DNA of 37,654 nt from Nemertoderma westbladi (lineage: Eukaryota > Animalia > Xenacoelomorpha), in assembly GCA_032718475.1 (NCBI GenBank), contig JAUCBJ010008286.1, positions 1 through 37,654 on the forward strand, in the 5' to 3' direction. The translations under genes and the position numbers were made by a program. The notes beneath the pieces are model-generated. The model saw nothing but the letters and a program-made list of their open reading frames with translations. It was not told where the DNA came from and ran no database searches. Shown here in pieces: positions 4,394-30,870 of this stretch. The number at the start of each line of letters is the position of its first letter. The first letter of the stretch is position 1.

Positions 4394-4546
4394 TATCTAT
4401 ACTAAAAAATTACTTTTTAACTAACTAAAACTCTTACTAAAAATAACAATGGGTACTGAAGCAAATTATGTCACTTAAAAATTAAGTTGGATTATTTGAT
4501 TAGAGTCTTTAGAGTAATAGTCTCTAACACTACTCCCATCCAGCAC

Positions 4547-4617: not shown

Positions 4618-5861
4618 TGTTCGCGCTTTTGAAGACCTTTAGCAGTTTAACCTGCCAAAATTTATATGTCTTTTCGTTAATTAAAACCACTTTAGCATAC
4701 GACAATATTTTATGCTAATACGCAAAACACTAGCCGAAATCAGCCCATGCGCGATCATTCACCCGATGGATCTACACCCGGGAGACTGAATTCGGATGCT
4801 TAAATTTTATTATTACAGTGTAAGGTTGCAGTGTATACCTAATGTATTATTCGATAGATCGTTAATAATTAATCTCTGACAGATATTATTGGCTTTCGGG
4901 AAATATTAACAGTTCCTTTAGGACGTGGCGCTTTATCTATTTAAACAGAACTAAGACTTATACTAAACGCAACGATACTGCTTATGATTAAAGTATAAAG
5001 CGTATTCTTTAGGAAATACTTTGTTACCAATCACAATCATACACACTATTCTGCCGACAGTCAGTACATTTGATCACACATAAAGAGAGCAGTAATTGAC
5101 TCACGTAGGGTCTGCTAAATAACATTGGATTCAATACACACCACATTAATATAAATCGCAATTGTTATGTATAGCCGGTCTCTCTAACCTGTAGTGTTAT
5201 CAAGAAAATTGGGAATTGGGTGATTTATCCGTATTATCCAAATAGCAATATTTCCATCAACAAATAGGTACAATTAATAACTGACAGTAAATAACAGTAA
5301 AAACAATATGATTAATGCAATTAAATTAAGTGAGCATGTTAATTAGTGATTTATTGAGTAATTAATTGAGGTAACAGTTTATACTTTCGATAATTCAAGC
5401 AGTTTACTAGAGTTCTTCCCAAAAGGCCGGTGTTTCTGGCTTAGACAGCAATAACAACAAAGTAACAAGTAAAACAGTAAGACAGAACACTCTCCTTATG
5501 ATCGGCAGAAAAGCTACACGTCGACAGGAAAAACCGCCCTGATTGGCCCAAGCCAAACAAAGAACCACGCGTCCAATGGCTGTTTCCATGTCAGCAACCA
5601 GCTGCTAGATGTCGTAATATGAATCATCACGGCTAAGCTGTGAAAGGTAGTTGGTGCATTACAAGTTTTTTGCCTTACCATGTCCGCCAAAACACGTATA
5701 TAGCAGAATGATTTTTATGTCCGTTAAAACACCTGTAAAGGTACCTTGCGGGCGAGGGGAATATATATACAGTTAGAAAACCTTTTTAGAGTATTCCAGC
5801 GCCTGGGGGAGAACTGGCCAGCAAAGGCAAACGTATCAGTTATCCCACAAAAGCTTTTACA
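4618..5861 (-). repeat. 3' LTR of element 1 (1244 bp)
   Basis: Runs TGTTCGCG...TTTTACA on +. Matches 15762-17006 except for about 4 substitutions and one 1-bp indel seen by eye. A purine-rich GGGAGCGG (PPT-like) lies immediately upstream on - at 5862-5869. Confidence 0.96.
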
Positions 5862-5939
5862 CCGCTCCCAGAAAATGGGATTTAAGTCTATAAAATATAC
5901 CAAATCACAGTTTCTAAAATATAAAAATACTCTAAACAG

Positions 5940-7229
5940 TTAGTCTTTCTTGCGCGGACGGCGTTTACGCAGCCTTTTAAAGCTAGCAAGAGTCCTTTTC
6001 TCTTTGGGGCGAGCCACTTTACGAGGAGGGCTATAACTCCTGGGTGAAGGGTGCAATATGATTGCATCAGAAGGTATGGGATTGCGATCGGTATATCCGC
6101 CGGTCGAAGTACTGGGTTGATTGACATCAACGTCCGGGGAGAGGGGTCTAACGGCTTTGAGAGCTCGTTTCAAGACAGCCGCTCTTACGGGTCCTTTACG
6201 AGTGGTCTGAACGAGGGCCGTGGGTGGACCATAGGCAGTTAGAAACTTCCTTGGTTTAATGGTTCTTTCCAACTCGCGTTCGCGGGCTTGGTACTCGTAA
6301 GGCCGTCGATATACTTCCTGTAACTCGATATGCGTGATTTCTGTTCGACAGAAGCGAATAGATAAGGATGGAACGCATAAATTCCTTCGTAAGCGCGTCC
6401 AGGATAATAGCGATGGCGCGAATCACGATGTAAATCAGCGTTCGCTTCCCAAGCTCTAATGTAACGTAGTGTGATCATTTCATCTACGCTTTCCAAATCG
6501 CGATTAAAAAGGGCAATCGAAACTGGCGTGTCCCTTTAGTTGACAGTGGTGACATTGAGTCATAAATTGAGGGCAAACCGCAAAAATATGCAAATTATTA
6601 AATCTGCAATACGCGCAATAAATTTCCATCGCCGGTTGTTCGTGGAAATAGGAACAGCGGACGTTTGTGTCCATGGGCGTAACATGGTCTCTCGATGCGC
6701 ATAATCGACAACGTTGCCGAGAAACATAGTTGGCATGGCGATAATCGTACGCAGTGAGACACTGTGGACCTTGATACCATTCTAGGATGTAATCGTTGTC
6801 GTTGTTCCGAGCGCGATAGGCTGAATCTCTTCAGATTCCAGACATATTGGTTCGTCTTCCCAGTCTGTTACGAATAGAATTTTCGTGATCTATTCTCGGT
6901 TTATCGTTACGACGCCGCTGGGTATGATATTTAAATAGAACCATTTCCCTTTCGGTGTCTACATCGTCCGTATCATGTAAATCGATAGGATGGCCGGTAG
7001 TTAAGAAGTCCATATACGTACCATTACGATGCGTATAGCGAGCAGTTAATTTTCGATAGTCCAATTCACACGTAAGTTGCTCTTGGGACATCGGCGGTTC
7101 GATATAACGACCATCGTCCTCCGTAATAGTCGGATCGGCTTCACCGCGTATCAAGCTATCCACAAACGCTTGTAAAGGTAGAGTATATCGCTCCCTGATA
7201 CCAAGGTCATCTTCTATCAATTCCGTCAT
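5940..7229 (-). pseudogene. Element 1 accessory ORF (~430 aa reconstructed): three CCHC-type zinc knuckles + WExxADxH domain + basic tail
   Basis: Reading through the TGA at 6831-6833 gives CRLCASRDH...C, CAYCRFNNLHIFAVC and CHHCQLKGHASFDC. Removing one T of the T-run at ~6506-6510 joins ORF 6239..6496 (WEANADLH...). A compensating shift returns to the frame of 5940..6272. Homologous to 20591..21460. Confidence 0.75.
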
Positions 7230-8850: not shown

Positions 8851-9927
8851 TCACGTTATGGAGTCCCTAGATATTTGTCGGATTAGGGAAGTAGTCGTAG
8901 GAAGAGTATCTTGCCTTCCATAGTTTTCGGACAGTTTTCGGTCTCTTTCCAGTAAACATAAACGACTAGCTGGGCGATTGAGTTGTTGTGTTACTTTCTC
9001 CGCTCCCTTGGCCTGTCTAATTTCTGCCGTGGTAAGATGAGGAGGCCATTCTTCTTCTTCTTTACTTAAGGAGTCGGATCCACCTAACCAGCCTGGAGTA
9101 TCTATCAGTTCTTGAAGAGTTGCTCCTCTGGAAGCGGTGTCGGCTGGATTAATCGTCCCAAGGCAATGTCTCCATTGATCTACATTGGAGTTAATATCGT
9201 CATTATCTGAGGAGTATGGTGTTCCCTCAGTTGGGTCGTCCACATCACTGCTCTCCACTTCCCCCTTTACTTGGTATACCTGTTGTTGAGGTAATCTCTC
9301 TTTGAGAGTTCTACGGGAAGGGCCAGTGAAGTACCAACCTACTCTAGTTCTTACCGCATAGGTTTGTAGTGGCTGTGGTTGAGCAGGCCGTTTCTCTAAT
9401 GGCTCGAGCGCCTCATGCGCGTTTTGGCCGATGAGTATTTGCACTCCAGGATAATCTGTCTGGAATCGAGGTATCTTAAGATGTTGGACGCTCTCATCTT
9501 CGTCCCAATTATAAAGGTCTGCTTGAGTAGTAGCAAAGTTCTTTATAGCCACCATTTTTACTGACCTTACACCTTGTGTTCCTAACTTATCCTGGGGGGT
9601 GGACAACACACCTACATAGTAATCTGCCGTCAGGGTAGATTTCCAAACCTGCATAATTCCTGACATATTCAATTTAGTCCGGAACTTGGGTTGTCCAGCA
9701 AAGATATCTTCGGCTAGTTCTTGATCGATGAATGTTCCTGTGCTGCCGGAGTCCAGGAGGGCGTTCACTATGTAGCTTTTGTTAAGACCGTGAACTCTTA
9801 CCTGAACTACAGGAAATTCTCTGATTCCTACGTTGGAAGCTGGAGCTTTCCAAGATGGTTGTTTGGCGAAAGTAGTTTGGGGAAACTCCTCGTTGATGTC
9901 TTTTTCGTAAGTAAGTGCTCGATACAC
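8851..9927 (-). pseudogene. BEL/Pao aspartic protease (DUF1758-type) fused in frame to the C-terminal remnant of RNase H
   Basis: ALLDSGSTGTFI catalytic motif, ILIG and AVRTRVGWYFTGP, then directly QWRHCLGTINPADTASRG...WLGG...WP (Pao RNase H end). There are no RT motifs between them and no integrase after. Confidence 0.88.
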
Positions 9928-12900
9928 TTGCGGTATTTATTAGATAACAGGATTCGTTGGCATCGGAGAATTCGTCTGTATAGAATCCTTCCCACTCAGA
10001 ACCTTGGTCAGTGTCGTTCACATCACTGAATTGGACATGTAGTTCGGGCTCACTTACCTGACTCGGGTTGTCTCGTTCGAACTCACTGTGTAACAAAATG
10101 TGATGTTTCGCGCCACACTTTGCACACTTTGCGTCGGAGTAACAGGTTCGCCGTTGGTGTCCTGATCTGAGGCAATTATAGCATAACCGCTTATTCCACA
10201 GGACTGTACGTCTGTCTACAGGGGATTTCTTTAGAAATTCAGCACACGCACTCAAACGGTGAGGCCCGTCGCACAGCGCACATTTTGGTTTGATGTTACT
10301 CACCTTAACTTGGTTAACGTTATGCACTCTCGTTCTTTCTTCGGGCTTTCTTCCATGAATTCTCTTAGGAGACGTAGGAGGAGTTGTTGTTACCTGTTCT
10401 CTCCTGTCACTGGTTCGAGACTTGTATTTACTTACGTCTTTATAGGTCTTGTTGTCATAGTAAGATTTTGCTGTGTCTTTCCCGCTGTCCTCTTCTTGAG
10501 AAGCTTGGCTTTCGCCGTCGTCAGTATAACACACTGGTATTATCCTTCTCCTAGAATCGGGTTTCTCACTTACCTTATTTTCCGATGTTTTCTCTCTGGC
10601 CTGCCTTATGAGTTGTAATTTTACTTCACTATCTAAGAAAGACATGAGATCAGCCATGGTTGGACTTCGTCGTTGTTGTTCATTCATGTACAACACTTTC
10701 TTGTCCCAGCGTGTACATACTCCACCCTTTGGTAAAGTAGAGACTACGGCTCCAATAACCATGGAACTCTGGTATTCGTGCGACTTACCTAACCAGTCCA
10801 GTTGTCTACAGATCTCTTGTATTTCATCGGAAAACTCTATAATCCCACTACTAAGGAAGTGTCGGGGGGCTACTAATTTTGTATACAAATACTTAGCTAT
10901 GTTATCTTTGTTACCATACCTGATGTTTAATGTATCCCAAACTTGTCTTAATCCATCTGGATGTCCAATAAACTTTAACGCCATTAACTTGGGAGGTCCT
11001 TCCAAACACTTGATGAGGAATCTAAGTTTCTCTCCGTTAGATAGTACAGAGTTCTGTATGCTATCTTTGTAATATTCGTTGAAAGGTAACCATTTCATCT
11101 CATCTCCATTGAATTTGACGATCTCTCCCACTTTGACCGCTTGGCGGGCTTCTGTTCTAGCCATCTGACGCGTAAAGCTTTCTTGGGCCATCGTGTTATT
11201 TAATATCGAATTATCGGTATACAAATTTCTCGGATCATTATCAGGTCTATAGGGAATATCATTAATAACAGGTCTATAATCACCCTTAATAGGGTTTGCT
11301 ATAGGAGTTTCAACTTCACTAGCAGTATAGATGCGTGTAGGCTCCACACCTTGCGCATGTAATACTTCAGACCTAACGGGTTGACACAATGTTACAGGAG
11401 GCATTGGTATGCCTTTTTGTATATTGACTAATTTGTCGCGTTCTAGCGCGATACTTTGCTGCACTTCTTGCAACTCTGCTCTACCTTCCCTCACTGTTCC
11501 CTTAAGTTGGTGGACAGTCTCCTGCATCTGTCCTAGCAGGAGATTCATCCCCCGCCGTCCCTCTTCCACCCACTCAACCGCCGAAGCGGGAGTCGCCAAC
11601 ATAGTAGCGGGCTGACGCGGGACGACGGGAGACAAATTATTGATTTCTCTCTCTGCTATCTGGACAGGGGTATTTGCATGGACTGTTCCACCGGGTACAG
11701 GCAGTGTAGTGCTATGTAAAGGGAATTTAGAGTTAAGCTCTGGAAGTGTAGGGGTCTCTAGCACAGAAGTGACTTTGGGAACTACAGGCCTAATTATTTC
11801 AGGTTCATCGACTATAGTAGGGAGTCTTTTGACCTGGATAAATTGTTCTATGGGTTCTGCACTACCTAAATCCGTGCTAGTTAGCTGTCTTTTAACAGCT
11901 GGGGGCAAATCAGGCAATTTGCGACGGTAATAGGTTTTTCTACGCCTACTTAGATGGGATCTATTTCCTCCGCCTTCAGGGTCGGTAGTATCGCCTTCCT
12001 CCGAGGATGTGTACCCCTGGCGCTTGGGAGTAGATTTTCTCATCATCTGCATTTGATTAGCAGTAAACTGTTTATTTATACTGTCTTGTGTCTCTTGCAG
12101 ATTCTCCAACTCCAGTTGGGTAGTCTGCTCAAATGCTCTCCTTTCTGCTTCTGCCACTGCCTTTGCCACCTTGGCTTCTGCTTCTGCATCTGCCGCCGCT
12201 GCCTTTCTTTCTGCTTCTGCATCTGCCGAAGCCGCCGCCTTTGCTGCTTTTCTTTCTGCTTCTACTTCTGCCGCCGCTGCCTTTCTTTCTACTTCTGCTT
12301 CTGCCATAGCCGCCGCCATAGCCGCCGCCTTTTGTTCCTCTATCCTTCTTTTCTTTATTTGTTCTTCTCGGACCCTAGTGAGGCGGAGTTTTTCATCACA
12401 TTCAGCTTGGTTTGCAGCTAACATTTCGGCATCGATCGAGTCCAATATAAGCTTGGTTCCTTCACTATTAGGGGAAAGTCCATGCAGCCGTCTCCTCAAC
12501 TCTTCGTCTCCTAGGAATCGCTGATAGTCGGACAAATAAATGTCGATAGCGTCTCTAGTTCGCGGTTTCTCGGCGGCCTCTTCGCTTTCCGCTTGAGAAA
12601 GGGTGACATCAGTTTGTTCTTCACAAGTTGATCTCTCAGCCAGCTGGGATTTCCACGTGGCCGTTTCCTGTACTTTGAGATCTACCCGATGTAACCAAGT
12701 TTTGACAGCAACCTGCAGCGACGTGTCCTGTCTTCTTTTGGAAGTTTCCTCAAAGGCTGAGAGGATTAGTCGAATGCGTAGGGTTCTTTCACGTACTTGG
12801 TATAGCAGCTCTTCCTGCTCTTGAGGTCCTTGAAGTTGTCGAAACAGTTGTTCTTCCAAGCGCTCCAAGGAGCCGAAGAATCCCTGCACATATCCTGCTG

Positions 12901-13501
12901 CCGACCTCTTCCAAACAGCTGGATCCATTGTATCTTTTGCCACTCCCATCCTGTGTATTTCTTCCCAAGTAGCCTCGGACAGGTCCAACGGGAGTCCGAG
13001 TCCGGGAAAGTTCCATTGTGATTCAACAATAGATCTCAATTCTTCCCTGGCGTATCCCGCGTAATTATCTTGGGTCGCTCGCTTATTCTTCGCCCAGTCG
13101 GCTTGATGTTCCTCCACCGCAATGAATATAGTAGTTAGCACTGCAGCAGGAAGAGTAAGAAGGGGGTCCGAGTAGACTGTATCAGCCGTCTGCACTTCAT
13201 GTTCGGGAGTCAGCTCTACAGTATCCGAACTGCTGGAGCTATCGGATCGCTGGGAAGTAGGTTCTTGACCAAGATGTTGCTGCGATAGGACAACTGCCTC
13301 TTGGTCCCGTTTTACCTGTGCCCGAGTGCCTATGATGGACCTATGGTGGACTAGCCTAGGGTCTGATACTACTGGAGGGATGACCTTTTTTACAGTAGGA
13401 GGTGAGCCGAACTTCTCTCTTATTCGCTCCACACTCCTATCTGAATCACAGATAGTGGTCTCGATCAGACTGTCCGACAGGTTTTGCTGAGTGTCAGACA
13501 T
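9782..13501 (-). CDS. gag: BEL/Pao Gag (DUF1759-type capsid region, three Cys/His knuckles, Ala/Glu/Lys coiled-coil repeats)
   Basis: 1239-aa open frame. KFNGDEMKWLPF...EKLRFLIKCLEGP...LNIRYG is a BEL gag signature. Knuckles: CALCDGPHRLSAC, CYNCLRSGHQRRTC, CAKCGAKHHILLH. The last ~40 aa are out of frame after a 4-bp duplication at ~9907-9914. Confidence 0.92.
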   Translation of the reverse strand: MSDTQQNLSDSLIETTICDSDRSVERIREKFGSPPTVKKVIPPVVSDPRLVHHRSIIGTRAQVKRDQEAVVLSQQHLGQEPTSQRSDSSSSSDTVELTPEHEVQTADTVYSDPLLTLPAAVLTTIFIAVEEHQADWAKNKRATQDNYAGYAREELRSIVESQWNFPGLGLPLDLSEATWEEIHRMGVAKDTMDPAVWKRSAAGYVQGFFGSLERLEEQLFRQLQGPQEQEELLYQVRERTLRIRLILSAFEETSKRRQDTSLQVAVKTWLHRVDLKVQETATWKSQLAERSTCEEQTDVTLSQAESEEAAEKPRTRDAIDIYLSDYQRFLGDEELRRRLHGLSPNSEGTKLILDSIDAEMLAANQAECDEKLRLTRVREEQIKKRRIEEQKAAAMAAAMAEAEVERKAAAAEVEAERKAAKAAASADAEAERKAAAADAEAEAKVAKAVAEAERRAFEQTTQLELENLQETQDSINKQFTANQMQMMRKSTPKRQGYTSSEEGDTTDPEGGGNRSHLSRRRKTYYRRKLPDLPPAVKRQLTSTDLGSAEPIEQFIQVKRLPTIVDEPEIIRPVVPKVTSVLETPTLPELNSKFPLHSTTLPVPGGTVHANTPVQIAEREINNLSPVVPRQPATMLATPASAVEWVEEGRRGMNLLLGQMQETVHQLKGTVREGRAELQEVQQSIALERDKLVNIQKGIPMPPVTLCQPVRSEVLHAQGVEPTRIYTASEVETPIANPIKGDYRPVINDIPYRPDNDPRNLYTDNSILNNTMAQESFTRQMARTEARQAVKVGEIVKFNGDEMKWLPFNEYYKDSIQNSVLSNGEKLRFLIKCLEGPPKLMALKFIGHPDGLRQVWDTLNIRYGNKDNIAKYLYTKLVAPRHFLSSGIIEFSDEIQEICRQLDWLGKSHEYQSSMVIGAVVSTLPKGGVCTRWDKKVLYMNEQQRRSPTMADLMSFLDSEVKLQLIRQAREKTSENKVSEKPDSRRRIIPVCYTDDGESQASQEEDSGKDTAKSYYDNKTYKDVSKYKSRTSDRREQVTTTPPTSPKRIHGRKPEERTRVHNVNQVKVSNIKPKCALCDGPHRLSACAEFLKKSPVDRRTVLWNKRLCYNCLRSGHQRRTCYSDAKCAKCGAKHHILLHSEFERDNPSQVSEPELHVQFSDVNDTDQGSEWEGFYTDEFSDANESCYLINTASVSSTYLRKRHQRGVSPNYFRQTTILESSSFQRRNQRISCSSGKSSRS

Positions 13502-13584
13502 GTTTAGTTATACAGTTGAATGTCTACTACTATAGTTTCAGTTAAAGCAAGTCTAGTAATTCAGTATGACCGCAAGCCTAGCGA

Positions 13585-15634: not shown

Positions 15635-15767
15635 TTGCAACCTTATTGCTTACTGCAATAAGATTGTAAACTGTTACTGTTCGACAGAACAGTATTAAAC
15701 CGTATTTAATGCCTACACTTGCAACCTTATTGCCTACTGCAATAAGATTATAAACTGTTACTGTTCG
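15635..15767. repeat. ~49-bp hairpin-containing duplication (84-bp spacing) abutting the 5' LTR
   Basis: TTGCAACCTTATTGC(T/C)TACTGCAATAAGATT(G/A)TAAACTGTTACTGTTCG occurs at 15635 and 15719. Each copy has the stem CTTATTGC/GCAATAAG. Confidence 0.85.
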
Positions 15768-17006
15768 CGCTTTTGAAGACCTTTAGCAGTTTAACCTGCC
15801 AAAATTTATATGTCTTTTCGTTAATTAAAACCACTTTAGCATACGACAATATTTTATGCTAATACGCAAAACACTAGCCGAAATCAGCCCATGCGCGATC
15901 ATTCACCCGATGGATCTACACCCGGGAGACTGAATTCGGATGCTTAAATTTTATTATTACAGTGTAAGGTTGCAGTGTATACCTAATGTATTATTCGATA
16001 GATCGTTAATAATTAATCTCTGACAGGTATTATTGGCTTTCGGGAAATATTAACAGTTCCTTTAGGACGTGGCGCTTTATCTATTTAAACAGAACTAAGA
16101 CTTATACTAAACGCAACGATACTGCTTATGATTGAAGTATAAAGCGTATTCTTTAGGAAATACTTTGTTACCAATCACAATCATACACACTATTCTGCCG
16201 ACAGTCAGTATATTTGATCACACATAAAGAGAGCAGTAATTGACTCACGTAGGGTCTGCTAAATAACATTGGATTCAATACACACCACATTAATATAAAT
16301 CGCAATTGTTATGTATAGCCGGTCTCTCTAACCTGTAGTGTTATCAAGAAAATTGGGAATTGGGTGATTTATCCGTATTATCCAAATAGCAATATTTCCA
16401 TCAACAAATAGGTACAATTAATAACTGACAGTAAATAACAGTAAAAACAATATGATTAATGCAATTAAATTAAGTGAGCATGTTAATTAGTGATTTATTG
16501 AGTAATTAATTGAGGTAACAGTTTATACTTTCGATAATTCAAGCAGTTTACTAGAGTTCTTCCCAAAAAGGCCGGTGTTTCTGGCTTAGACAGCAATAAC
16601 AACAAAGTAACAAGTAAAACAGTAAGACAGAACACTCTCCTTATGATCGGCAGAAAAGCTACACGTCGATAGGAAAAACCGCCCTGATTGGCCCAAGCCA
16701 AACAAAGAACCACGCGTCCAATGGCTGTTTCCATGTCAGCAACCAGCTGCTAGATGTCGTAATATGAATCATCACGGCTAAGCTGTGAAAGGTAGTTGGT
16801 GCATTACAAGTTTTTTGCCTTACCATGTCCGCCAAAACACGTATATAGCAGAATGATTTTTATGTCCGTTAAAACACCTGTAAAGGTACCTTGCGGGCGA
16901 GGGGAATATATATACAGTTAGAAAACCTTTTTAGAGTATTCCAGCGCCTGGGGGAGAACTGGCCAGCAAAGGCAAACGTATCAGTTATCCCACAAAAGCT
17001 TTTACA
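15762..17006 (-). repeat. 5' LTR of element 1 (1245 bp)
   Basis: Direct copy of 4618-5861, followed by the TSD AGTGT. Confidence 0.96.
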
Positions 17007-17480: not shown

Positions 17481-17542
17481 GGGCTAAGAATACTCGCGGA
17501 CTAAGAATACACACGGACTAAGAATACACACGGGCTAAGAAT
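17478..17542. repeat. 17-bp minisatellite, ~4 copies (CACGG(A/G)CTAAGAATACA)
   Basis: Units start at 17478, 17495, 17512 and 17529, directly upstream of the LINE ORF1 fragment. Confidence 0.9.
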
Positions 17543-19830: not shown

Positions 19831-21780
19831 ATTGACGATCTACATAAAAAAAACCTGGCTAGGGCAGGTGAAAGGAGTAAGCCAAACCCGCAGGTTTGTC
19901 TCCCCAATCACCTCCTTCGCCTCTCTCATAATATAAGATTCCAGAATATGAATACGACTAGTGTATATGAGTCCAGTCGAATGTTTTACTAAATACTACG
20001 ATATACATCAGAGCGACGATGATGTATATGTCTGACTCTATATGTAGAGTCTGTCGCTCCGTGATACGATCGCATTATCGACTTGCTGCTGGGTTCTTCG
20101 GGCTCGCTCCCCTCTTTCGCCCCCTCCCCAGATACACCAGTCTACCTCCTGTAGACTCTGTTGACGGCGTCCGTGAGGCGTCACTTCCTGGAACAGGCGA
20201 CGATGTCCCTGGGCCCCGACTGTTTCTCGGCTGGTACTCCTCCATCGGCCTCGTCCCATTTGTTGTGTTCCCGTGGTCGCATCCGCCAACTCCTCCTTCT
20301 GCAGTTGCACGCGCGCCTTTTCGGACGCGCCTTGTGCCCTTCGCTGCAGACGTTGAGCTTCAATAATAGAGTGATAGTGCTCGTCCTTGACCTGACGCTT
20401 GTCTAGGACTCCTCCTTCTGGTACTTTCCGCAAGCTATGAGCTCCGGTGGTTGTCGCTGTGGGCGCCGCGGTCCGTTGCTCCTCTATCTGTTCGGCGGTC
20501 AATGAACCCACCGGTACGTGAGTCAACAGAAACTCGTTGCAGTATTGTATAGCCGCTATCCTCCAATCTCCTCTCGCGCGCACCACCTTTCTAGTCTCCG
20601 AAAAATAGACCTTTGGTTATACGGTCGCAAATAGCAACAAAGTTCCAAGTATACTTATTGTCCATATTCAACTGTCTAAAATATGATCGGACAACGATAA
20701 CTCCAGTATTCTGCGGAAGGTCTTGAGCGGTTAGTATCAGCTCCTGATATTGTGGTAGAGATTGCAAATACGGCTCGTATGCGACGTGTGATGGATCTAC
20801 CGCCCAGAACCCGTATCCTGCTTTAAACGGCAACCAACGCATTTGTGCTTGGATGTGGTAATCAGCCACACCCTCCCACTTGTCTAACATTTCCCGGAGT
20901 AGGTTGGCGCTATGGTTTTGGAAAGAATCATCACGCAGTTGACATTTCGCGCTACAATGTCCCTTTACCCCACAATATCCACATTGAGAAATGAAGACGG
21001 TGCATGTATGGAATAAATGATCTGTCTCGTTGCACCAACGGCAGACCTTATGCGCCGCCTCTACTATAGCATCGCACAACTTTTGACTATGCCTTGTACT
21101 GCCGCACAACTTGCATCTACGCGCTTGTGGAAACCAGGCCCTCTCATATATGAGGTCTCCAATCGGCTTCGCACTTCCTCCCTTCCCAATGTCTAAAACG
21201 ATGTCATCCTCTCCGGTCAGAGGTTGTCGATCCGGAACAAAGTAAACATCCTCGCCTTTGTCCTCTATCTCCAATATTTCCTCCCGCATTCGTTTCGGAT
21301 ATGTCTTCGCCACTGGGAGATCCACTCCGAACACCTCTACTAACGTCTCCGGCCAACCCTCTCTAACGGGTCTATCCGCCTCCAAGTGGACGGGAGTACC
21401 AAACCCGCGGGTTTGATCCCCGAACCACTTCTCCAAGGCCTCTGGCGTCGGATACTCCATTGACGGTCAGTCTCCCAAATCTCCGATGTTCTGTCGATAT
21501 ACTCCTTTGAATATCGCTAATCCTCTCCTAACCATCGACGTGTTCTCTAGCGATTGGTTGAAGAACGGGGTTAAGAAACGCTTCATCACGTCGGATTGGA
21601 TTCCCCCTTTCGAGCGAACGTATTGATCTCCTCCAAACACCAATGGATGACGCTTCAAAACTCGCGCAACGATATCCACTACTAAACAAGTTACCGTGCT
21701 CGACTCAAGCACCAAATAATATTGCAGCGACGCACGGGGTGGCGCGCAGATGTTCCAATACACTAACGCTTGCCGCTTAA

Positions 21781-23144
21781 CCGTTACAGGACTGGGCTAT
21801 TTTCCGTGCACCAGGACTGGGGGGGGGTTGATTCCACCCCCCCTTCCATTTTGGATAATTACTGGCCATTTTTTTTTTAAAATTGGTAGTAATGTGAAAA
21901 AATAAATACCTAGCTCGTGTGTGATAAAAAAATTTATTTTCGAGTTATGGGTGGCACCGAAACGGCACTTTTCGTGCACCCACTGAAAAAAATAAAATTT
22001 CAGTAAAACAAGTCAAAAAGTTACTTTCCGCCCGGTTTTATGGGTTTTCGACCCCACTGAATCCTACCTGATGGTCCATATCGTCTCATAATGTTGATTT
22101 ATGCCATTTTTTAGAAGCACCCAAATTTGAAATTTTCATGCCACACCCACTTCTAGGATCCCCCGAAAAATACCATCCCACTTGTCTGTGACATCTATCT
22201 ATCGGTCTAAATCGATTCAGCGACCTCGAAAACCTTTGTACACAGAAAATTGACCTTTGGAAATGAGTACGATTGAAAGTGAAAATTTGAATTTTTCGTG
22301 CCGCACCCACTTTTGAAGGACTCCCCAAAAAATACCATCCCACTTGTCTGTGACATCTATCTATCGGTCTAAATCGATTCAGCGACCTCGAAAACCTTTG
22401 TACACATAAAATTGACCTTTGGAAATGAGTACGATTGAAAGTGAAAATTTGAAATTTTCGTGCCGCACCCACTTTTGAAGGACTCCCCGAAAAATACCAT
22501 CCCACTTGTCTGTGACATCTATCTATCGGTCTAAATCGATTCAGCGACCTCGAAAACCTTTGTACACAGAAAATTGACCTTTGGAAATGAGTACGATTGA
22601 AAGTGAAAATTTGAAATTTTCGTGCCGCACCCACTTTTGAAGGACTCCCCGAAAAATACCATCCCACTTGTCTGTGACATCTATCTATCGGTCTAAATCG
22701 ATTCAGCGACCTCGAAAACCTTTGTACACAGAAAATTGACCTTTGGAAATGTGTACTATTGAAAGAGAAAATTTGAAATTTTCGTGTTGCACCCACTTTT
22801 GTAGGACCCCCAAAAAATGTATTCAGGGAATTTTTGACGTAAAATGGACACCATTGTTCGATTCGGTATACCAAAAAACCTTTATAAACGAGAAACTGGC
22901 TGACAACATCAATCCTTTCAAAAGTTGCAAATTTTAGCTTGAAAAGTGCTGACATGTGTTTTTTACACCCCCTATAACTCGAAAACTAACAGAGCTATAA
23001 AGTTCTCGTTTTTTTTGTGAGATTCAGAGATAAATTTTAGGAAAACTCAGGAAATTTCAGCTTACTGCGATCAGTGCTTCTGCGCAGATCACTAGATAAA
23101 CTTAAGGGGGGGTGGATTCAACCCCCCCCCCAGTCCTGTAACGG
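21781..23144. mobile_element. Non-autonomous piggyBac-type DNA transposon
   Basis: TTAA at 21777-21780 and 23145-23148. 16-bp TIR CCGTTACAGGACTGGG / CCCAGTCCTGTAACGG. Asymmetric subterminal G7-TTGATTCCA-C7-type repeats and no transposase. Excision restores the flanking reading frame. Confidence 0.93.
22110..22810. repeat. 162-bp tandem repeat, ~4.3 near-identical copies, inside the piggyBac-type element
   Basis: ATCGGTCTAAATCGATTCAG occurs at 22201, 22363, 22525 and 22687. Confidence 0.95.
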
Positions 23145-25414
23145 TTAAAGTGGGATTTGAACTCCGCTCCCGGTGGCGTGCTATATTCACCATACGCATC
23201 CTCGCATTTCTTTTGCGTCTTTAACTTGAAGTCCCAATTGTATAACAAATGCGCTATAAAGCCCATACCAGTCTTAGCAGAGTTTGGGTACTCTCTATAA
23301 ATTCCAATATCCTGTGCCCATAGCAACAATAGCTTGGTGTCCCAAACGGTCTCGGCAATCTATCCTCCAAATCCGTCATGGTGTTGAAGTCGCTCTCCAA
23401 GTCACTCTGGACTCCCGATCCCACCTTGACGTAATCCTGGTTGAGAATCGCCTCTATAACTTTCTTGGGTAGCATCCTGGCATTGATACGCTCTGCTCCG
23501 TGCATACCTCCTCGCCTGCATACCTCCAAAATCTGCTCCCTGAGATCCTTCCCCCGCCGATATTGCGTCGTTATGATGGGCTCCGGTCTCTCTCGGTCCG
23601 CCCTCATGCGCATAAATACAAGAGTCACACCATCGGCCGCGTGAATTTGAATGCACTTACTAGTTAGGCACTCTTGATGGGACCCTCCCTCATTGTCGTA
23701 AAACATCACGCGCCAATCCTGTAGGGATTCCTCTGTCTTTCTCCATTGACGCTGGATATCGTCGGATGGGGTCCACATGCGCTCAATATCCTTGTGGTCA
23801 TCGTATTGGGTGTAGGAACCCTTCCTCCTCAGCCACGCCTGATCTACCTCCTCGTCGTCCGGGAATGTAGCCACCGCGACCCATACCTTTATGTACTTGT
23901 CCAACCAACCAAATAATTTGCTCTCCTTCCCCGGAGCTCCAATCTTGTCTAACGTATCGTAATCCGTTATCTGCATCGGGACGTCACGCAAGAACTTCGC
24001 GCATAAAACTTCCCGTAGGCAGTCGCGTTCCAATGATCCGACGACATCACCATCGGCAAGAATCGAATGGCTTCTCGCGACTCCAGGTATTGGTTCGTTG
24101 CCGTCGGAATAATACACCGGTCGGGGTTGAGATACAGCCTGTGGAACAAATCCAGTCACTCTCCTAGTTTCCTCCTGATGTCTATCCGCGGTCTTATTAT
24201 ACTCCGCTATCCGCTCTTTGAATAACTGCTTCGCTTTCGCCGCTCGCTCCTCCTGCCGCAATGCATCTATATCGTCCTGATGCTCAGGCATGAGATTTCT
24301 CGCTCGGTGAGGCGAAGTAAACGTGGTCCAGGAACTCGAGAGCTCGAAACCCGCGGGTTTGGTACTCGAGTCCCGTGCCGCTTCGCGCCGCGCCTCTAAG
24401 TCCTTATAGGCTCGGTATAGCGAAATGGCCGCCGCCGTCTCTATCAAAGCGGGTGTCGAACAGGGTTTAATCTCCGTATACGGATCTAAAGTCGTAACAG
24501 TCGGCGTAATGGGTCTCGGAGGTCGCTTTCCGCTAAAGTCGATACTGATCATCGGGTTGCTCATCGGGTAACCTCCCTCGTTGTATCTAAGAAACTGGTG
24601 AGCTTGACATCGCGTTAATATCGGTTCAGGATTCTGCTCATTCAGTCGATCGGGAATCGCTACGTCTTGCTTATTCATGCATTCGCCACATTTGTAGAAC
24701 AACTTGTATATACTGAAAACCTTTGGCGTCTCCTGATCCTCGCTTCGAGTCCTCCGGTAAAGGGGCATTCCGTCGAATTGATCCCGGACTACAGGTAGCG
24801 GTTCGTCATATCGTAAATACATGTTTAATATGGTATAGACGAGCGATTTCCTCATCGGGGTCTGCGCTAATATCACATACATCAAGGGCAAAGTCGTAGG
24901 GATAACGAGTGCGATATTCTTTCCGTAGAACCTCCATGCGGTGTCCCAACGCTCGCATCTGTTCCCTCCTCAACTCCTTCTCATACGTGGGCTTATACTT
25001 CCCGTTCAACTCCATCACTGATCTCCCGTGGTAGTAAACATTCGAATCCTTACACCCGGGTTGGGCGAACGGTAGTTCCGCCTCCTCTCTGGCGGTGAAC
25101 CCTCTCCTCGGTTGCGCTCTCATTTCCTTCTCCATTTTGCCACGTATATATACATATATCCAATTGGGTCCATTACGTAACTAATTACACTGGGTAAATC
25201 AGTTAGATGATGCCGAAGGACAGACTTGCCAAACCCCCGGCCGCCTTCCAGCAGTTCAGGTTCGGCTCTCTAGATCCTGTCTCATTCCTAACTACCTTCT
25301 AACCTATTCCCATGCATAGCGCAAAAACTTCGGAGATAAACTGGCCATGACCAACTCACTTTTTGATGCCCAAGCTACTCCCAATACTTGTACTAGACTA
25401 CAGTAGTTAAAAAG

Positions 25415-26097
25415 GACAATAGTTCAGCCATCTCCTGTTCCAATACTCTGGCGTTCACCCTCTTGTAAACCAGACAGGCGTCGTACATAGTACCTACTGC
25501 CCTGCTTGGCTGCAATAGAATGAATCGCTGTCTCGCTGCCGACTAACAGTATAACTTTCCCATGTGATGCAACCTATTATGTATATCCCATAGAATCGCT
25601 CTTTGCAATTCTATTGGGTGACTAGGGATTATCACTGGGAACCTAAACTTTGAGTTTATGTCGACAGTCTGGATTCTCGATCTAAGACAAATCAAACCCT
25701 TATGGATTAATGGACTCCATTTTCTAAGGGGTTTATAGAGAACTGGTCGTTGAGCCGATAACAGATAGAATTCTTTCGGGAAGGCACACATTTGATAATG
25801 CTTCAAATGCTTTAATTCCGCTTGATCAATCTCATCCTCTGTCAGAGGTTGTTTCAATTTCTGAATTCGCTCAATATTAGTGCTCATTTGTTCTCCTAAA
25901 TGTTCCGAATGTTTTAAACAAAGGTACGAAACGTATCGGCTTAACCACGCAGTTCTTTTACAAATTGTTAGCCAAGAGGCAGACGAATTTAGTAATTTGT
26001 CATAAATACTACATGGCTCTAATGCCAGCGACGGTTGCCCGCTATCTAATGGAAGTTTCGAATCCAAACCCGCAGGTTTGGAAACCAAAGGCTCCAT
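25415..26097 (-). pseudogene. Element 2 pre-integrase region and integrase Zn-binding domain; catalytic core absent
   Basis: ASWLTICKRTAWLSRY, EIDQAE, LICLRSRI, FPVIIP and HNRLHHMG, then after a stop ...CLVYKR...EQEMAEL. No DDE core is recognisable downstream. Confidence 0.8.
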
Positions 26098-26227
26098 CTT
26101 GTCGGTAATTTTCTATCCGTCACTTACCAATTATGACCCTTGTGTAGTCTGTAAGGGTGGTTTTATGTCATAACTTACCCTTCCGGACCTAGTAGTCACG
26201 TAAGTCTCTTGGTCTGACAGGTCTCCG

Positions 26228-26327
26228 GGCCGCTCCAATTACTCTTCAGGCCGCTCCAATGACTCTTCAGGCCGCTCCAATGACTTTTCAGGCCTCTCCA
26301 ATGACTCATCAGGCCGCTCCAATGACT
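26228..26327. repeat. 21-bp coding minisatellite, ~5 copies (SLERPEE on -)
   Basis: GGCCGCTCCAATGACTCTTCA-like units at 26228, 26249, 26270, 26291 and 26312. Confidence 0.9.
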
Positions 26328-26964
26328 TGAGTTTGGCTTTCGACTTAGACTTGGAAACTTTCTCCACTTTGACTTCTGCATCTATCGGCATCGGATTAGT
26401 TACTACCTTCAGTTGCTCTGGCCAGTGTTCCTGTGTCCTCGTTAGAAAATGAGGTCCATGCAACCAAAACTGCTGGGACTCCTCCTGACAGAATTCCGCC
26501 GGCATAGCACCTCTTGAAGTTATGTCGGCCGGGTTTAACACTCCCGGACAATGTCTCCACTGTTCCTTCGTCGAGAAGTCGACGATCTGAGCGTGTCTGT
26601 TGGCCACAAATGTCTTTAGTGCAATATTGTCAGCTGCAATATACACTAACACTAAGGATGCGTCTGTCCAATAGAATAAGGTCATTGTCGTGTCTAACTC
26701 CTCTATTATCTGCTTACTTACCTCGACTGAGACTACTGCCGCCTGCAACTCTGCACGAGGGACAGTCATGTATTTGACCGGCATTGTCTTTGATCTAGAA
26801 GTCACAAAGGCCGTCTCAAACTTATTCTGACTTACCTCTCGGCGAAGGTAGGCTACCATACCAAAGCCAGTGTCACTTGCGTCACTGAACAAATGCAGTT
26901 CTAAATCAGCTGGAAATACCAGCTGATTCGGAAAGTAGGAGCGGGGTATATCTATATTTTTCAA
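26239..26964 (-). pseudogene. Element 2 RNase H (Pao 'Peptidase_A17' region)
   Basis: IPRSY, LHLFSDAS..GFGMVAYLR, VPRAELQAA, YWTDAS, FVANR, WRHCPGVLNPADITSRG, WLHGPHFL. Confidence 0.92.
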
Positions 26965-26979
26965 TAGATGTAACTCGGC

Positions 26980-28082
26980 TTCCTACTCTCTCCACTGCTT
27001 TGCATGTATAGGGGATATTGGCTCGTCCCACTCTAGGTCGGACAACCAAATTTTCCTCATACATACTCATGCCTGTAATATTATCGGGCTGATAAAGTTC
27101 ATCGGGTCAAATAGTCTACTCATTGTGGATAAGCAGATTCTCTTAGTCAAAACTTTGTCCGGGCTACTGGGCTCAAACCAAACTCTCACCTGGAACTTAT
27201 CCATGTTCGGATTCCAAGCTAGTCCCAGTACTCGCGCCATGGGGATGGGTTCTACCCCCAATTCAATGTCTCCGCTCCCGCGATCTTTCACCGGGAACGA
27301 CTCTAATAGGGCCTCCGAGTTGGTGGTGAACTTGGTCAGAGGGAAACCTTCTGTAGCCAAGCACTCCTGTAGGCCGTGAGCCACTTCTATGGCTTGTTCC
27401 GCTGTGTCCTTGGACACCAATCCGTCGTCCATATAGAAGTTTCTCAGGATGGACTAAATAACTTCTACTGGAAACTTACCTATCTGGGCCATTGCTATTT
27501 TCTTTAGAACAAACAGCGTGCCGTTGGGACTATCGCGGGCACCGAATATCCTGACATACACCTGGCATGTAACCACTGGGCCGGATAGGTCTTCATTCTC
27601 ATATCAGAGAAATCGGAGACTATCCTGGTCCGCCTTGCAGGCTCTTACCTGGTGAAACATTGCCTCGATGTCGCAAGTAAACGCGAATCGCCGCTGTCTA
27701 AAGCGTAACAGTATCCCTATTAAGTAGTTATTTAAGTTGGGACCATCCATCAACTCTGAGTTCAGGGACATACCTCTATAGACTGCTGCGCAGTCGTTGA
27801 CTACTCGGACTTTGTCTGGATTGTCAGGGTGAGTCACATAGTGGTGTGGGAGGTAATAAGTCTGGTCCGTCACTAAGTTGGGGTCCTCTACCTTCCCAGC
27901 AAATCCCTTGGCGAAATAGTTGTTTATCTGGGCGCAATACTTCTCCCTAACGTCTGGATTCTTTAACAACCGAGCCCTTACTCTGTTCAATCTTTTCAGA
28001 GCCAAGTTGTAGTTGTTCTCCAACTTAGGAGGTTGTCGACTCCACAACATTCCAACTTCAAAATGTCCTGTCGGTAGCAGCG
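26980..28082 (-). pseudogene. Element 2 reverse transcriptase (several stops)
   Basis: GHFEVGMLW, YYLPHH, KVRVVNDCAA, SLNSELMDGPNL, LLRFR, DIEAMFHQV, NFYMDD (YMDD at 27424-27435), RVLGLAW, TKR...FDP. Confidence 0.93.
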
Positions 28083-29245
28083 CTTGTGTCCTTCTGGGCT
28101 CCTCCCCGAGGCGCACCAACGAGGCGGACACCTTTCCACCACCCCTGGGGCCAGTCTGACTGATGTTATTATCAGACCGGGCTGGAGGGTGGCCCTATGC
28201 TTCCCGGGTTCTGTTTTCGGTCCCCTGATCACACCGGCACAGCTCGTCGAACGTGTAGCCAGATGGGCGGCTACTGTCAACTTACTGTGGCCTGACTGTA
28301 CATTGAGCCAACTCAGAGAGTCAACCGGCGGGTGGACCAGTCGATAGCGATCGAGCACCAAGGTCGCCCTTGGGCCTAACCGACGGTCTTGTCCCAGGTG
28401 GGCTTGCGCTACCCAACATGGAATATTGATACGTAAGTTCCACAAACAATACTGACTAGTGCGAAAGCTAGGAACAAGTAACCACTTACCAGTCACTGTA
28501 CACGTGTACTCAACAGATGTTCACAATATCAAGTACACAACGGTAAACACAAATTCGGACACATACCATGCACACAGAGGACATAATAGGGAAAGACAAA
28601 ATCGGGGTCAAAATCGAGAAAGACAGGGAATAGTTGTATCGACTGGAGAATATGAGGAAAGAGAGTCGAAAGTACTTTATTTTACCGTCAGGGTAAAATA
28701 ACTTTGTGTGCACAAAGTATGCTGGGGCGCAGTAGAGATATGGTCCTACTAATCCCAGCGGCAACTGAGCCAACTGGCAAGGTTTCCTACACTCACTCGT
28801 AGTGGCCACACATACGATCACATGTACTCACGTACCCACAGCAACAGAAAGCTCATCTCAGACCTAAACACACTCCAAAGACCAATCAGCTGAACATGGA
28901 GACAATAACATATAGTATCAAAAAAACGGAACAGCTGACGGTCAATGGCACACATCCAAGCCCCAAAGCTAACGGCCACTCGTTGCCCACATACAAAACA
29001 CAGTTCACACCACATGAAACACAAATCACGCCATGCCACCACCCCTACTGTGTACAGGAATGGCAGTACGGCAACAGGCCGACTAGGCAATACCACGGCA
29101 CCATGTCGATTCATGGTTCGTCAGACACGAGGGCCTTAAGTATCTCCGTTGCACTTAGATACCGATTTAACGTGCCCCCAGACCCTCACGAGTCCGCCGC
29201 CGCCTGTTATACGCACCCCTATAGAGACCTCAACTCTTTAGGTAC
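28083..29245. other. Unidentified ~1.16-kb insertion splitting element 2 pol between protease and RT
   Basis: EKRSLEMMEDTI (29247 side) and LLPTGHFEVGMLW (28080 side) are normally contiguous in BEL pol. The intervening DNA has no recognisable domain, TIR or TSD. Confidence 0.7.
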
Positions 29246-30870
29246 GTATGGTATCTTCCATCATCTCTAGCGACCGTTTCTCATCAGTGGACATGGTTAA
29301 GTCGTATCCACCGGGTTCCATTGCGTCCCTATCCAGCCATTCGACGGTTCTAGCTCCTGTCTTGAGGTCCTGGCATATCAGTTCCTTCTGCAACTCCTCC
29401 TCCTCACTGTATTGGAAAATGTCGAGGTCTCGATATTTTGCCACTTGACCCTCCACTATATTGGTATAAGTCGAAACATTACTCAAATAGGTGGCGTGGG
29501 CCGCTGAACCAGACCCACGGGTCTGATAACAGTAGTCCTCGGGTTCACTATCTGTCCGGTCATTGTAGAGTGGTTCCGACAATCTAACATTATCGGGAAT
29601 CAACTCCTCGTCCGACTCGCTAACGTCACTATAGTGGTCAATACAGGTTCTCCTAAACTCGTCTATGTCTGGTGGTTCTACTAACGGTGGTTGAGTTACA
29701 GGCTGTAATCCGTCGTGTCTATCCTTTGGCTTGTCACCACCTGAAAACTCATAAGACATGGGTACTCGTGTATACCAACATAGTATAGTCCTATGGGCGT
29801 GTGGTCCATTTACATGCGGCTCAGCTGGTCTCGTTTCCCATATTTGGTGCGCGATCAGCTGTTCTGCTCCAATCAACATAGATACATTCCTATAACCTAC
29901 CTGGTGTCTTGGTATTCTGAGCTTGTCAAAATACTCCTGTGCTATGGGACTCATCGGTGGCACCTTACCTAACTGCCTGCCGAACCCTTTCATAGCTAGA
30001 CACTTGAATCCGTCCAATGGCAACGCTCTCCGTTCTTGGCGAGTGTGCTGGTCTCTCGGGAGTAGGGAGTCTAGTTCTACCGAAATCTTGTGTCCCTTGA
30101 GGTCCCCTACCCCGTGCATGGATTTTAACTCTATTTGGATTTCCTCAGTGTCCTGGAAGCTGGAAACGGCTCTCGCCACTTCCTTGTCTATATATGACAA
30201 TGTGGACGCAGTGTCCAATATCACATATATTCTCTTCGATCCCTTGTCTCCAGTAAGTTTCACCGGAATCACGCTGAATATTTCCGACGTGGCCGATGAC
30301 AAATACGTCCACGCGCTGGGTGATGAACTATCCGCGGTGAACCCTTGGCAGGTCACCTCTCTCGCGCTCGCCTCGCCATCCTCGTCAGACAAACCTGGTT
30401 GATATCCATCGTCCTGGATGCCGGTGTACGTATTTCTTCTCATCATTACGGGATCTCTGCTCCCCTTCCTTTGAGGATTTCTCTGTAGGTAACGGTCTGT
30501 TGGGGTATGGAAATCCGCATGTAGCAACTTGTGATGTAGTCTGCCGCATTCCATGCATCCGTCCTTGCTGTTCATGGCCTGGCGCAAGACATGCCCAACA
30601 GGTGTCCAACGTCTGCACTTGAACTCTTCTCTGTTCCGAAGTTAATTCTTTGAACCGTCTGCAACTGTCTAACTTATGGTCGTCTGATCTTACCTCTTTT
30701 AGTAGGCAGAATTGGCAACCTACAAATCCATCCGGCAACTCCTGTTGCTTTACCTTAGGTCTATCTGACCTCTCACCTTACCATACTCGCGAGTCTGATC
30801 TAAAGGCAGGGGTACTCGAATCGTTGCCAGTCCAGTTTGGTGGCCTAGGAATACCATTGCCTGTCGACCT
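29246..30870 (-). pseudogene. Element 2 gag C-terminus (zinc knuckles) + aspartic protease
   Basis: CQFC...HKLDSC, CWACLAPGH, CMECGRLHHKLLH (frameshift near 30580), VILDTASTLSYI and MLIG. Truncated upstream of ~30870-30900. Confidence 0.88.

What the first reader, a model, noticed from the sequence alone, without database searches (positions are those of the whole stretch)
5940..7229. A second, divergent BEL/Pao family carries a homologous accessory ORF at the same position
Seen: the ORF track hides the knuckles, but reading through the TGA at 6831 gives RQRCRLCASRDH...C / CAYCRFNNLHIFAVC / FMTQCHHCQLKGHASFDC. These align with element 2 ARRCKLCGSTRHSQKLC / CRWCNETDHLFHTC / FISQCGYCGVKGHCSAKC. 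Both ORFs lie just upstream of the PPT/3' LTR and end in basic low-complexity tails. The two elements are otherwise clearly diverged in their protease and RNase H sequences. Inference: the cargo is an old, vertically inherited module defining a BEL/Pao lineage, not a one-off gene capture.
Basis: partly seen in the sequence, partly recalled or inferred. Interest (0 to 1): 0.82.

Follow-up and report, generated by a model that had tools for sequence, protein, structure and literature searches.

The report
Retrotransposons share zinc-knuckle exonuclease cargo gene
Two very different, broken retrovirus-like jumping genes in this DNA carry related extra genes where a virus keeps its envelope gene, each with three zinc knuckles and an unnamed domain, likely fused in intact copies to an RNA-trimming nuclease that would help the element process or shield its RNA.

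Summary
The homology is real and goes beyond generic knuckle spacing. The two knuckle regions beat all 2,000 shuffles, even with Cys/His fixed. A second shared domain follows them, in another frame in element 1 (1 of 5,000 shuffles). Three unnamed database proteins carry the same module, and a profile built from them alone finds both window genes. Differences segregating among element-1 copies are 15 of 20 synonymous, so the gene has been under selection.

The N-terminus of homolog P0125 matches EXD2/WRN/Nibbler-type 3'-5' exonucleases (low-confidence model). Element 2 shows the same motifs upstream, split by a TTAA-flanked insertion (p about 0.003-0.015). The element-1 copy lacks this domain.

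Corrections: only element 1 has an LTR pair and a clearly basic tail, and it lacks RT and integrase. Vertical inheritance is unproven (sister grouping 94/75, long branches).

Verdict: a BEL/Pao third gene, probably exonuclease plus triple CCHC plus a new domain. It is a new variant of the DEDDy cargo known from rotifer retrotransposons.

The parts
15762..17006 (-). Element 1, 5' LTR (1,245 bp, TG...CA)
   Evidence: 99.6% identical to 4618-5861, 5 differences; 5-bp TSD AGTGT on both flanks
9782..13507 (-). Element 1 gag-type ORF, 1,241 aa, ending in three BEL/Pao gag knuckles
   Evidence: Pfam DUF1759 E 2.9e-12; knuckles
8851..9936 (-). Element 1 pol remnant: protease (motif 9759-9742), RNaseH-integrase linker (9168-9139) and pol C-end (8976-8950); RT, RNase H core and integrase absent
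6831..7229 (-). Element 1 third gene, N-terminal part (no exonuclease motifs in this copy), ending at TGA 6831-6833; other copies diverge or carry extra sequence near 6855-6867
6504..6830 (-). Element 1 third gene, three CCHC-type knuckles at 6710-6513
6326..6505 (-). Element 1 third gene, post-knuckle domain in a different frame (W-E-x-x-A-D ... G-x-Y/W-x-F)
   Evidence: score 57, 1 of 5,000 shuffles; second of only two hits of the homolog-only profile
5940..6320 (-). Element 1 third gene, Pro/Ser/Arg/Lys-rich basic tail; other copies carry extra sequence at about 6320-6326
5862..5869 (-). Element 1 polypurine tract
   Evidence: directly before the LTR's TG
4618..5861 (-). Element 1, 3' LTR
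29238..30777 (-). Element 2 gag end and protease (5' part of element missing from the window)
25400..28194 (-). Element 2 RT, RNase H and start of integrase, with 4 in-frame stops in 28044-26347; integrase core not seen
   Evidence: Pfam PF05380 E 2e-39; 692 polyprotein hits, best 41-42%
23761..25135 (-). Element 2 third gene, N-terminal region of about 450 aa, unassigned (one frame break near 24820)
   Evidence: no hit
23149..23760 (-). Element 2 probable DEDDy-type exonuclease, first part (D-x-E at 23700-23689; GSGVQSD at 23421-23401; frame break near 23290)
21781..23144 (.). Non-coding insertion with terminal inverted repeats, flanked by TTAA, holding a 162-bp tandem array; splits the probable exonuclease
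21467..21778 (-). Element 2 probable exonuclease, last part (Q-Y-Y-L-V-L-E at 21724-21704), then an in-frame TGA at 21467-21469
20591..21466 (-). Element 2 knuckles (21115-20942) and post-knuckle domain (20911-20735)
20038..20616 (-). Element 2 third gene, tail (frame break near 20600)
19911..19927 (-). Element 2 purine tract followed by TG; candidate PPT, LTR not verified
   Evidence: loose ends at 19928 in two runs; no LTR pair

Best explanation
Both elements are decayed BEL/Pao LTR retrotransposons whose sense-strand third gene holds a shared triple zinc knuckle plus an unnamed domain, likely fused in intact copies to an EXD2/WRN/Nibbler-type 3'-5' exonuclease that would trim RNA 3' ends bound by the knuckles. 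SHOWN: BEL/Pao identity, the position of the gene in element 1, homology of both shared domains, three outside homologs, and a synonymous excess among element-1 copies. SUPPORTED BUT NOT PROVEN: the exonuclease fold in homolog P0125, and the same domain in element 2, making its third gene one long ORF of about 1,300 aa (unknown region, exonuclease, knuckles, new domain, tail). INFERRED: the element-1 copy is a non-autonomous deletion derivative that lost pol and parts of this gene; the two elements inherited the gene from one ancestor; the protein is soluble and nucleic-acid binding, not an envelope, and most likely lowers small-RNA silencing of the element or finishes 3' ends of its RNA or cDNA.
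For: Shuffle tests: 0 of 2,000 with Cys/His fixed; 1 of 5,000 for the post-knuckle frame; 0 of 120 polyproteins reach the partner score. Three hits among 1.84 billion representatives, E 3e-12 to 2e-4, covering knuckles and post-knuckle domain. A profile from those homologs alone ranks element 2 (56.8 bits), element 1 knuckles (17.0) and element 1 post-knuckle frame as the top three in six frames of the window; best polyprotein 8.5. Segregating differences are 15 of 20 synonymous, 14 of 20 at third positions (p 9e-4); window-private ones are 5 of 16. P0125 N-terminus: phmmer EXD2 E 0.03 and WRN 0.066; Foldseek lists EXD2 first (E 1.4e-5), then Egalitarian, Nibbler, WRN; VIA top row EXD2 Z 6.3, rmsd 4.2, 84 aligned. 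Element 2: all eight homolog-defined blocks fall in order, and the first acidic motif is about 409 aa before the first knuckle against 382 and 430 in P0125 and P0124. No transmembrane-like stretch in the knuckle-bearing parts (max hydropathy 0.8). Precedent: DEDDy ORF3 in rotifer elements (PMC5408684).
Against: Element 2's exonuclease is statistically modest: rank 6 and 9 of 2,001 by HMM; 53, 148 and 853 of 1,000 by pairwise score; 2 of 600 and 23 of 1,500 by block chains, 0 of 400 and 5 of 665 natural chunks. Pfam, NCBIfam, PDB sequence search and the Atlas find nothing there; pairwise E 0.098 and 0.27. The P0125 model has pLDDT 35.6 and Z 6.3 is middling. Element 2 has Glu where the last Asp is expected and P0123 lacks the first Glu, so activity is not assured. 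The element-1 copy has no exonuclease motif, and an in-frame stop separates the two parts in element 2. The tree is weak. The selection test used 36 of 239 differences, those best supported, with a threshold that I chose.
Confidence: 0.6

Rival explanations
1. Same gene family, but passed between retroelement lineages by recombination (a shared pool of accessory genes), so it does not define one BEL/Pao lineage.
For: PMC5408684 (sections 3.3, 3.4) reports DEDDy ORF3s gained at least twice and shared between LTR and Penelope-like elements. The sister grouping could be long-branch attraction; 18 of 120 outside proteases match element 1 better than element 2 does. The superfamily of the homologs' carriers is unknown.
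Against: Element 2's protease has element 1 as best match (123 against at most 104 of 120). Both protease-containing trees tried join them. Cargo divergence (33% over the knuckle region) is like pol divergence (28%).
Confidence: 0.3
2. The shared unit is only the knuckle plus post-knuckle RNA-binding module (a nucleocapsid-like chaperone); the exonuclease is an optional or dead partner and was never in element 1.
For: The element-1 copy has a selected N-terminus without exonuclease motifs. P0123 carries the module twice and has a degenerate first motif. In element 2 a stop and a possible ATG (21460) precede the module.
Against: All 3 outside homologs have an exonuclease-like N-terminus in the same ORF. 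Other element-1 copies diverge or carry extra sequence at about 6860, where the domain would lie.
Confidence: 0.25
3. The knuckles are a duplicated piece of the element's own gag nucleocapsid, or a chance CCHC match.
For: BEL/Pao gag also ends in three Cys/His motifs; element-1 gag knuckles score 49 against the element-2 gene (33 of 5,000 shuffles).
Against: Cargo-to-cargo score 100 against at most 62 for 120 gag-bearing polyproteins; the post-knuckle domain has no counterpart in gag; the third cargo knuckle ends in Cys where gag ends in His.
Confidence: 0.03
4. The third gene is an env-like or fusion protein.
For: It sits in the env position; some belpaovirids carry env-like genes (PMC8742986).
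Against: No hydrophobic stretch in the knuckle-bearing parts (max 19-residue hydropathy 0.2-0.8; 1.6-1.7 in the exonuclease-like parts); no env-type Pfam hit; knuckles and a basic tail point to nucleic-acid binding.
Confidence: 0.03

Closest known systems
DEDDy exonuclease ORF3 of bdelloid rotifer LTR retrotransposons Juno and Vesta, shared with Athena/Terminon retroelements (PMC5408684; passages and sections 3.3, 3.4, 4 read)
   Same: Sense third ORF between pol and 3' LTR; non-env; DEDDy-type 3'-5' exonuclease; proposed roles in 3'-end processing or silencing, untested.
   Different: Carrier here is BEL/Pao (Juno and Vesta are Gypsy-type, recalled). The nuclease is fused to three CCHC knuckles and an unnamed domain, which the passages read do not describe (0 occurrences of 'zinc' or 'CCHC'). 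Closest folds here are EXD2/Nibbler/WRN. Kinship to the rotifer ORFs was not tested.
Belpaoviridae / BEL-Pao retrotransposons (ICTV profile PMC8742986, whole text read)
   Same: LTRs, gag with DUF1759 and triple knuckle, PR-RT-RH order, Pao-type PF05380 domain, PPT before the 3' LTR.
   Different: The profile lists only an env-like third gene and genomes of 4.2-10 kb; element 1 spans 12.4 kb with 1.24-kb LTRs even without RT and integrase.
Cellular EXD2, WRN, Nibbler/Mut-7 and Egalitarian exonuclease domains (PDB 6k17, 2e6l, 7jw2, 9rw7)
   Same: Best sequence and fold matches of homolog P0125's N-terminus.
   Different: Only 12-23% identity; none of these is a retroelement gene; domain partners differ.
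Multi-knuckle RNA-binding proteins (Lin28, Air2, retroviral nucleocapsid)
   Same: CCHC knuckles; best PDB sequence matches of the module.
   Different: Matches cover the knuckles only; the post-knuckle domain has no PDB or Pfam match.
Additional ORFs of plant LTR retrotransposons (PMC7264820, part 1 of 3 read)
   Same: [quoted passage not shown]
   Different: Plant Gypsy/Copia; env-like or antisense ORFs; no nuclease-knuckle fusion in the part read.

Membership tests
BEL/Pao (Belpaoviridae) | Paired LTRs with TG...CA and a 4-6 bp TSD | tested here: met
   Element 1: 99.6% LTR pair, TSD AGTGT. Element 2: no pair in the window.
BEL/Pao (Belpaoviridae) | Gag with DUF1759 and three Cys/His motifs | tested here: met
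   Element 1 DUF1759 E 2.9e-12, motifs; element 2 only the gag end.
BEL/Pao (Belpaoviridae) | Pol with PR-RT-RH-IN order and Pao-type PF05380 domain | tested here: met
   Element 2: PR, RT, RH in order, PF05380 E 2e-39, 692 BEL/Pao-type hits; integrase core missing. Element 1: only PR, linker and C-end remain.
BEL/Pao (Belpaoviridae) | PBS for tRNA-Arg or tRNA-Gly after the 5' LTR | tested here: inconclusive
   No CA-TGG start within 300 bases of element 1's 5' LTR; a duplication lies there.
BEL/Pao (Belpaoviridae) | PPT before the 3' LTR | tested here: met
   Element 1 5862-5869; element 2 candidate 19911-19927 only.
DEDDy (DnaQ-like) 3'-5' exonuclease, EXD2/WRN type | RNase H-like DnaQ fold | tested here: inconclusive
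   Homolog P0125: Foldseek EXD2 E 1.4e-5, VIA Z 6.3 rmsd 4.2 over 84, from a pLDDT 35.6 model. Element 2's own domain was not folded.
DEDDy (DnaQ-like) 3'-5' exonuclease, EXD2/WRN type | Four acidic residues in three motifs, with Y-x3-D last (motif definition recalled) | tested here: inconclusive
   By alignment P0124 and P0125 show D, E, D and Y-x3-D; element 2 shows D, E, D and Y-x3-E; P0123 lacks the first E.
DEDDy (DnaQ-like) 3'-5' exonuclease, EXD2/WRN type | Match to a curated family model (Pfam PF01612 or NCBIfam) | tested here: not met
   No exonuclease family for element 2 pieces or P0123-P0125.
DEDDy (DnaQ-like) 3'-5' exonuclease, EXD2/WRN type | Metal-dependent 3'-5' exonuclease activity | not testable with these tools
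   Needs an assay.
Rotifer Juno/Vesta DEDDy ORF3 clade | Groups with rotifer retroelement DEDDy ORFs in a tree | not tested
env-like ORF3 | Signal peptide, transmembrane anchor, glycoprotein homology | tested here: not met
   Hydropathy scan and Pfam on the pieces present in the window.

The most novel reading that the evidence does not exclude
An old, unnamed BEL/Pao clade encodes its own EXD2/Nibbler-like 3'-5' exonuclease fused to a triple zinc knuckle and a new domain, and uses it as an anti-silencing enzyme that trims or destroys host piRNAs. The same gene family would sit in LTR elements of several other hosts (three unnamed homologs, one on a contig that looks like ORF3-LTR-gag).
Probability: 0.25. 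Interest if true: 0.85.

Novelty: new variant of a known kind. Interest (0 to 1): 0.62.

Why it matters
The ICTV profile lists only env-like third genes for BEL/Pao elements. A conserved, selected nuclease-knuckle gene would extend enzymatic cargo from rotifer elements to a second LTR superfamily and to a different nuclease branch, the one holding the piRNA trimmer Nibbler and the transposon-RNA carrier Egalitarian (roles recalled). It defines a new protein module with no Pfam or PDB match, and gives a testable candidate for an animal retrotransposon counter-silencing or RNA-processing factor. Intact natural homologs exist for assay.

Tried and rejected
No whole genome is held for this window, so copy number and full-length relatives could not be examined. 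Word-indexed protein searches found nothing for the knuckle ORF (473 candidates) or the upstream ORF (7,570 candidates). Locus scans found nothing in viral contigs, genome contigs or the first metagenome scan; the second gave L001 plus two 33-aa knuckle-only matches that I set aside. Atlas: only CCHC leads under 0.9 and no usable hit. The single-sequence fold of the element-2 module was unusable (pLDDT 34.4) and was not searched. Plasmid and phage tblastn gave only E 3 or worse; one search gave no exonuclease locus. No RNA holder is listed; run X6 is only guessed to be RNA, so expression is untested. Slips: wrong frame for the post-knuckle piece, for pol, and for the middle exonuclease piece (redone in 103; the rank-1 and hhalign results are not used). 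No remnant of element 2's upstream region in element 1's 1.6-kb spacer or N-terminus. Programmed frameshifting at about 6505 was considered because most read depth shares that break; I think an amplified broken subfamily is likelier, since other copies differ there, but this is not excluded. Literature: searches listed no BEL/Pao element with an exonuclease or knuckle ORF3; the term with a slash cannot be searched, Repbase and Dfam were not available, and no supplements were read (those of PMC3118150 hold 7,861 element sequences and may bear on novelty).

Full report
Layout. The window is eukaryotic repeat DNA with two minus-strand BEL/Pao elements. Element 1 runs from 17006 to 4618: LTRs of 1,245 bp with 5 differences and the TSD AGTGT, a 1,241-aa gag (DUF1759), and a 361-aa ORF that goes from protease straight to the RNaseH-integrase linker and the pol C-end. 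It has no RT or integrase, so it is a young non-autonomous copy, inserted in a LINE. Element 2 has a gag end, protease, RT and RNase H with stops (PF05380 E 2e-39), no integrase core and no LTR pair in the window. Its pol has no close relative: best 41-42% among 692 hits, the named ones mostly from marine invertebrates. The host was not identified.

The observation. Their alignment scores 113, above all 2,000 shuffles, and above all 2,000 with Cys and His fixed. None of 120 BEL/Pao polyproteins, each with gag knuckles, comes near (at most 62 against 100). Homology continues past the knuckles in another frame of element 1 (6505-6326; 1 of 5,000 shuffles). The N-termini and tails do not align. 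Position next to the 3' LTR is shown for element 1; element 2 has only a purine tract at 19911-19927. The tail is clearly basic only in element 1.

Outside homologs. A full HMMER search of 1.84 billion representatives gave 3 hits, P0123-P0125, E 3e-12 to 2e-4. All are singletons without a functional name. All have three knuckles followed by the same motif, roughly F/W-E-x-x-A-D-x-G ... R-W ... G-F. A profile of their four modules, with no window sequence in it, ranks element 2 (56.8 bits), element 1's knuckles (17.0) and element 1's post-knuckle frame as the top three in all six frames. A profile of the post-knuckle part alone gives two hits, element 2 (15.6 bits) and that same element-1 frame (1.3 bits); its best score in 120 polyproteins is -1.0. 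The only homolog with DNA (L001, 3.7 kb) looks like ORF3-PPT-LTR-PBS-gag but holds no pol.

Selection and breakage. Public runs hold many copies of both families. Of 239 differences found over 5800-7400, 40 were listed and 36 lie in the ORF. Those segregating among copies are 15 of 20 synonymous and 14 of 20 at third positions (p 9e-4); those nearly private to the window copy are 5 of 16 synonymous. The two-frame path fits better than a single frame (15 against 13 synonymous). The list is biased to well-supported sites, sites are not independent, and the 0.75 cut was mine. Contigs from several runs stop matching at about 6320-6326 and 6855-6867 and go on unlike for up to 288 and 115 letters. 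The simplest reading is that the window copy has deletions there; divergence below the 85% limit is the alternative.

The exonuclease. The homologs' N-termini carry D-x-E, G-S-x-V/I-x-x-D and Y-x3-D motifs (motif meaning recalled). For P0125 the first non-knuckle PDB sequence matches are EXD2 (E 0.03) and WRN (0.066). Its model is poor (pLDDT 35.6), yet Foldseek finds 15 matches at E 0.001 or better, the 11 listed all EXD2, followed by Egalitarian, Nibbler and WRN. VIA-align puts EXD2 first of 48,161 chains (Z 6.3, rmsd 4.2, 84 aligned), a middling score. In element 2 the region upstream of the knuckles, split by a frame break and a TTAA-flanked insertion, shows these motifs in order. It is the only hit of the homolog exonuclease profile in the window, though at E 0.21. 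Shuffle results are modest: rank 6 and 9 of 2,001; 2 of 600; 23 of 1,500; natural chunks 0 of 400 (of 739) and 5 of 665; pairwise 53, 148 and 853 of 1,000. Libraries find nothing there. Spacing to the first knuckle, about 409 aa, lies between the 382 and 430 of two homologs. I put the domain's presence in element 2 at about 0.75-0.8. The element-1 copy lacks it.

Inheritance. Only protease and linker are shared (28% identity). From 120 relatives, 110 had both parts, 57 were non-redundant and 40 were used. The careful tree joins elements 1 and 2 at 94/75, unstarred, with a long-branch warning. Left alone, each joins the long row P0068. Element 2's protease has element 1 as best match, but 18 of 120 beat element 2 as a match for element 1. 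Common descent is favoured, not shown, and whether the nearest pol relatives carry the gene could not be checked.

Mechanism. Shown: a conserved, selected, non-membrane third gene with knuckles and a new domain. Supported: fusion to an EXD2/WRN/Nibbler-type nuclease. Inferred from known knuckle and DEDDy proteins: the knuckles and basic tail bind RNA and the nuclease trims 3' ends, either of host small RNAs that silence the element or of the element's own RNA or cDNA. A catalytically dead RNA-binding role, as in Egalitarian (recalled), is open, given the last motif in element 2 and the first in P0123.

Comparison. PMC5408684 (passages, sections 3.3, 3.4, 4) describes DEDDy ORF3s in rotifer Juno and Vesta elements, gained at least twice and shared with Athena elements. 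PMC8742986 (whole text) and PMC3118150 (passages) mention only env as a third BEL/Pao gene. PMC6338049, PMC6431247, PMC3706591, PMC8220671 and PMC12440569 (passages) and PMC7264820 (part 1 of 3) add DEDDy domains in Dada transposons and Terminons and plant extra ORFs, but no BEL/Pao case. Nine searches listed none; Repbase, Dfam and supplements were not seen. Earlier unchecked notes of this scan report Rrp6-like nuclease or helicase plus knuckle ORFs in Gypsy elements of other genomes; none matches this sequence, and I did not test them.

Verdict. Observation partly confirmed, interpretation partly supported. New variant of a known kind; interest 0.62.

Noticed in passing
window 1584-4396 and 16869-17483 (-): Element 1 is inserted between ORF1 and ORF2 of a LINE whose endonuclease (PF03372) and RT (PF00078) frames are largely open; the ORF1 label is recalled.
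   Followed up: partly
window 21781-23144: Non-coding TTAA-flanked insertion with terminal inverted repeats and 4.3 copies of a 162-bp unit; piggyBac-like by recalled features. Two contigs stop matching at 21778, so other element-2 copies differ there.
   Followed up: partly
window 23761-25135 (-): About 450 aa at the start of element 2's third gene with one CxxC and a charged helical stretch; no match in any library tried.
   Followed up: partly
L001 79-3685: P0123 holds the module twice. It is followed by a purine tract and TGT (2064-2075), about 1.1 kb without a long ORF, CA-GT-TGG (3158-3164) and an acidic ORF that runs off the contig: the look of ORF3-PPT-LTR-PBS-gag. No pol on the contig, so unverified.
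   Followed up: partly
window 5800-7400, runs X2, X3, X5, X6: Element 1's family is abundant and has at least two kinds of copy: in X3 a contig nearly identical to the window has depth 2,686, a divergent one 35. This fits an amplified non-autonomous subfamily; depths are not copy numbers.
   Followed up: partly
window 12140-12330 (-): Element 1's gag is unusually long (1,241 aa) and holds an Ala/Glu/Lys repeat from 33-39 bp units.
   Followed up: no
window 26228-26327 (-): In-frame 21-bp tandem repeat (4.8 copies) between RNase H and integrase of element 2.
   Followed up: no
window 35229-36026 (-): Two same-frame ORF pieces that look like a Penelope-type RT end and its thumb region (recalled); no Pfam hit at E 0.001.
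   Followed up: partly
window 37200-37415 (+): Thr/Ala/Pro-rich 24-bp repeat ending at a GT, possibly a mucin-like host exon.
   Followed up: no
window 1-846: 126-bp satellite, 6.7 copies.
   Followed up: no
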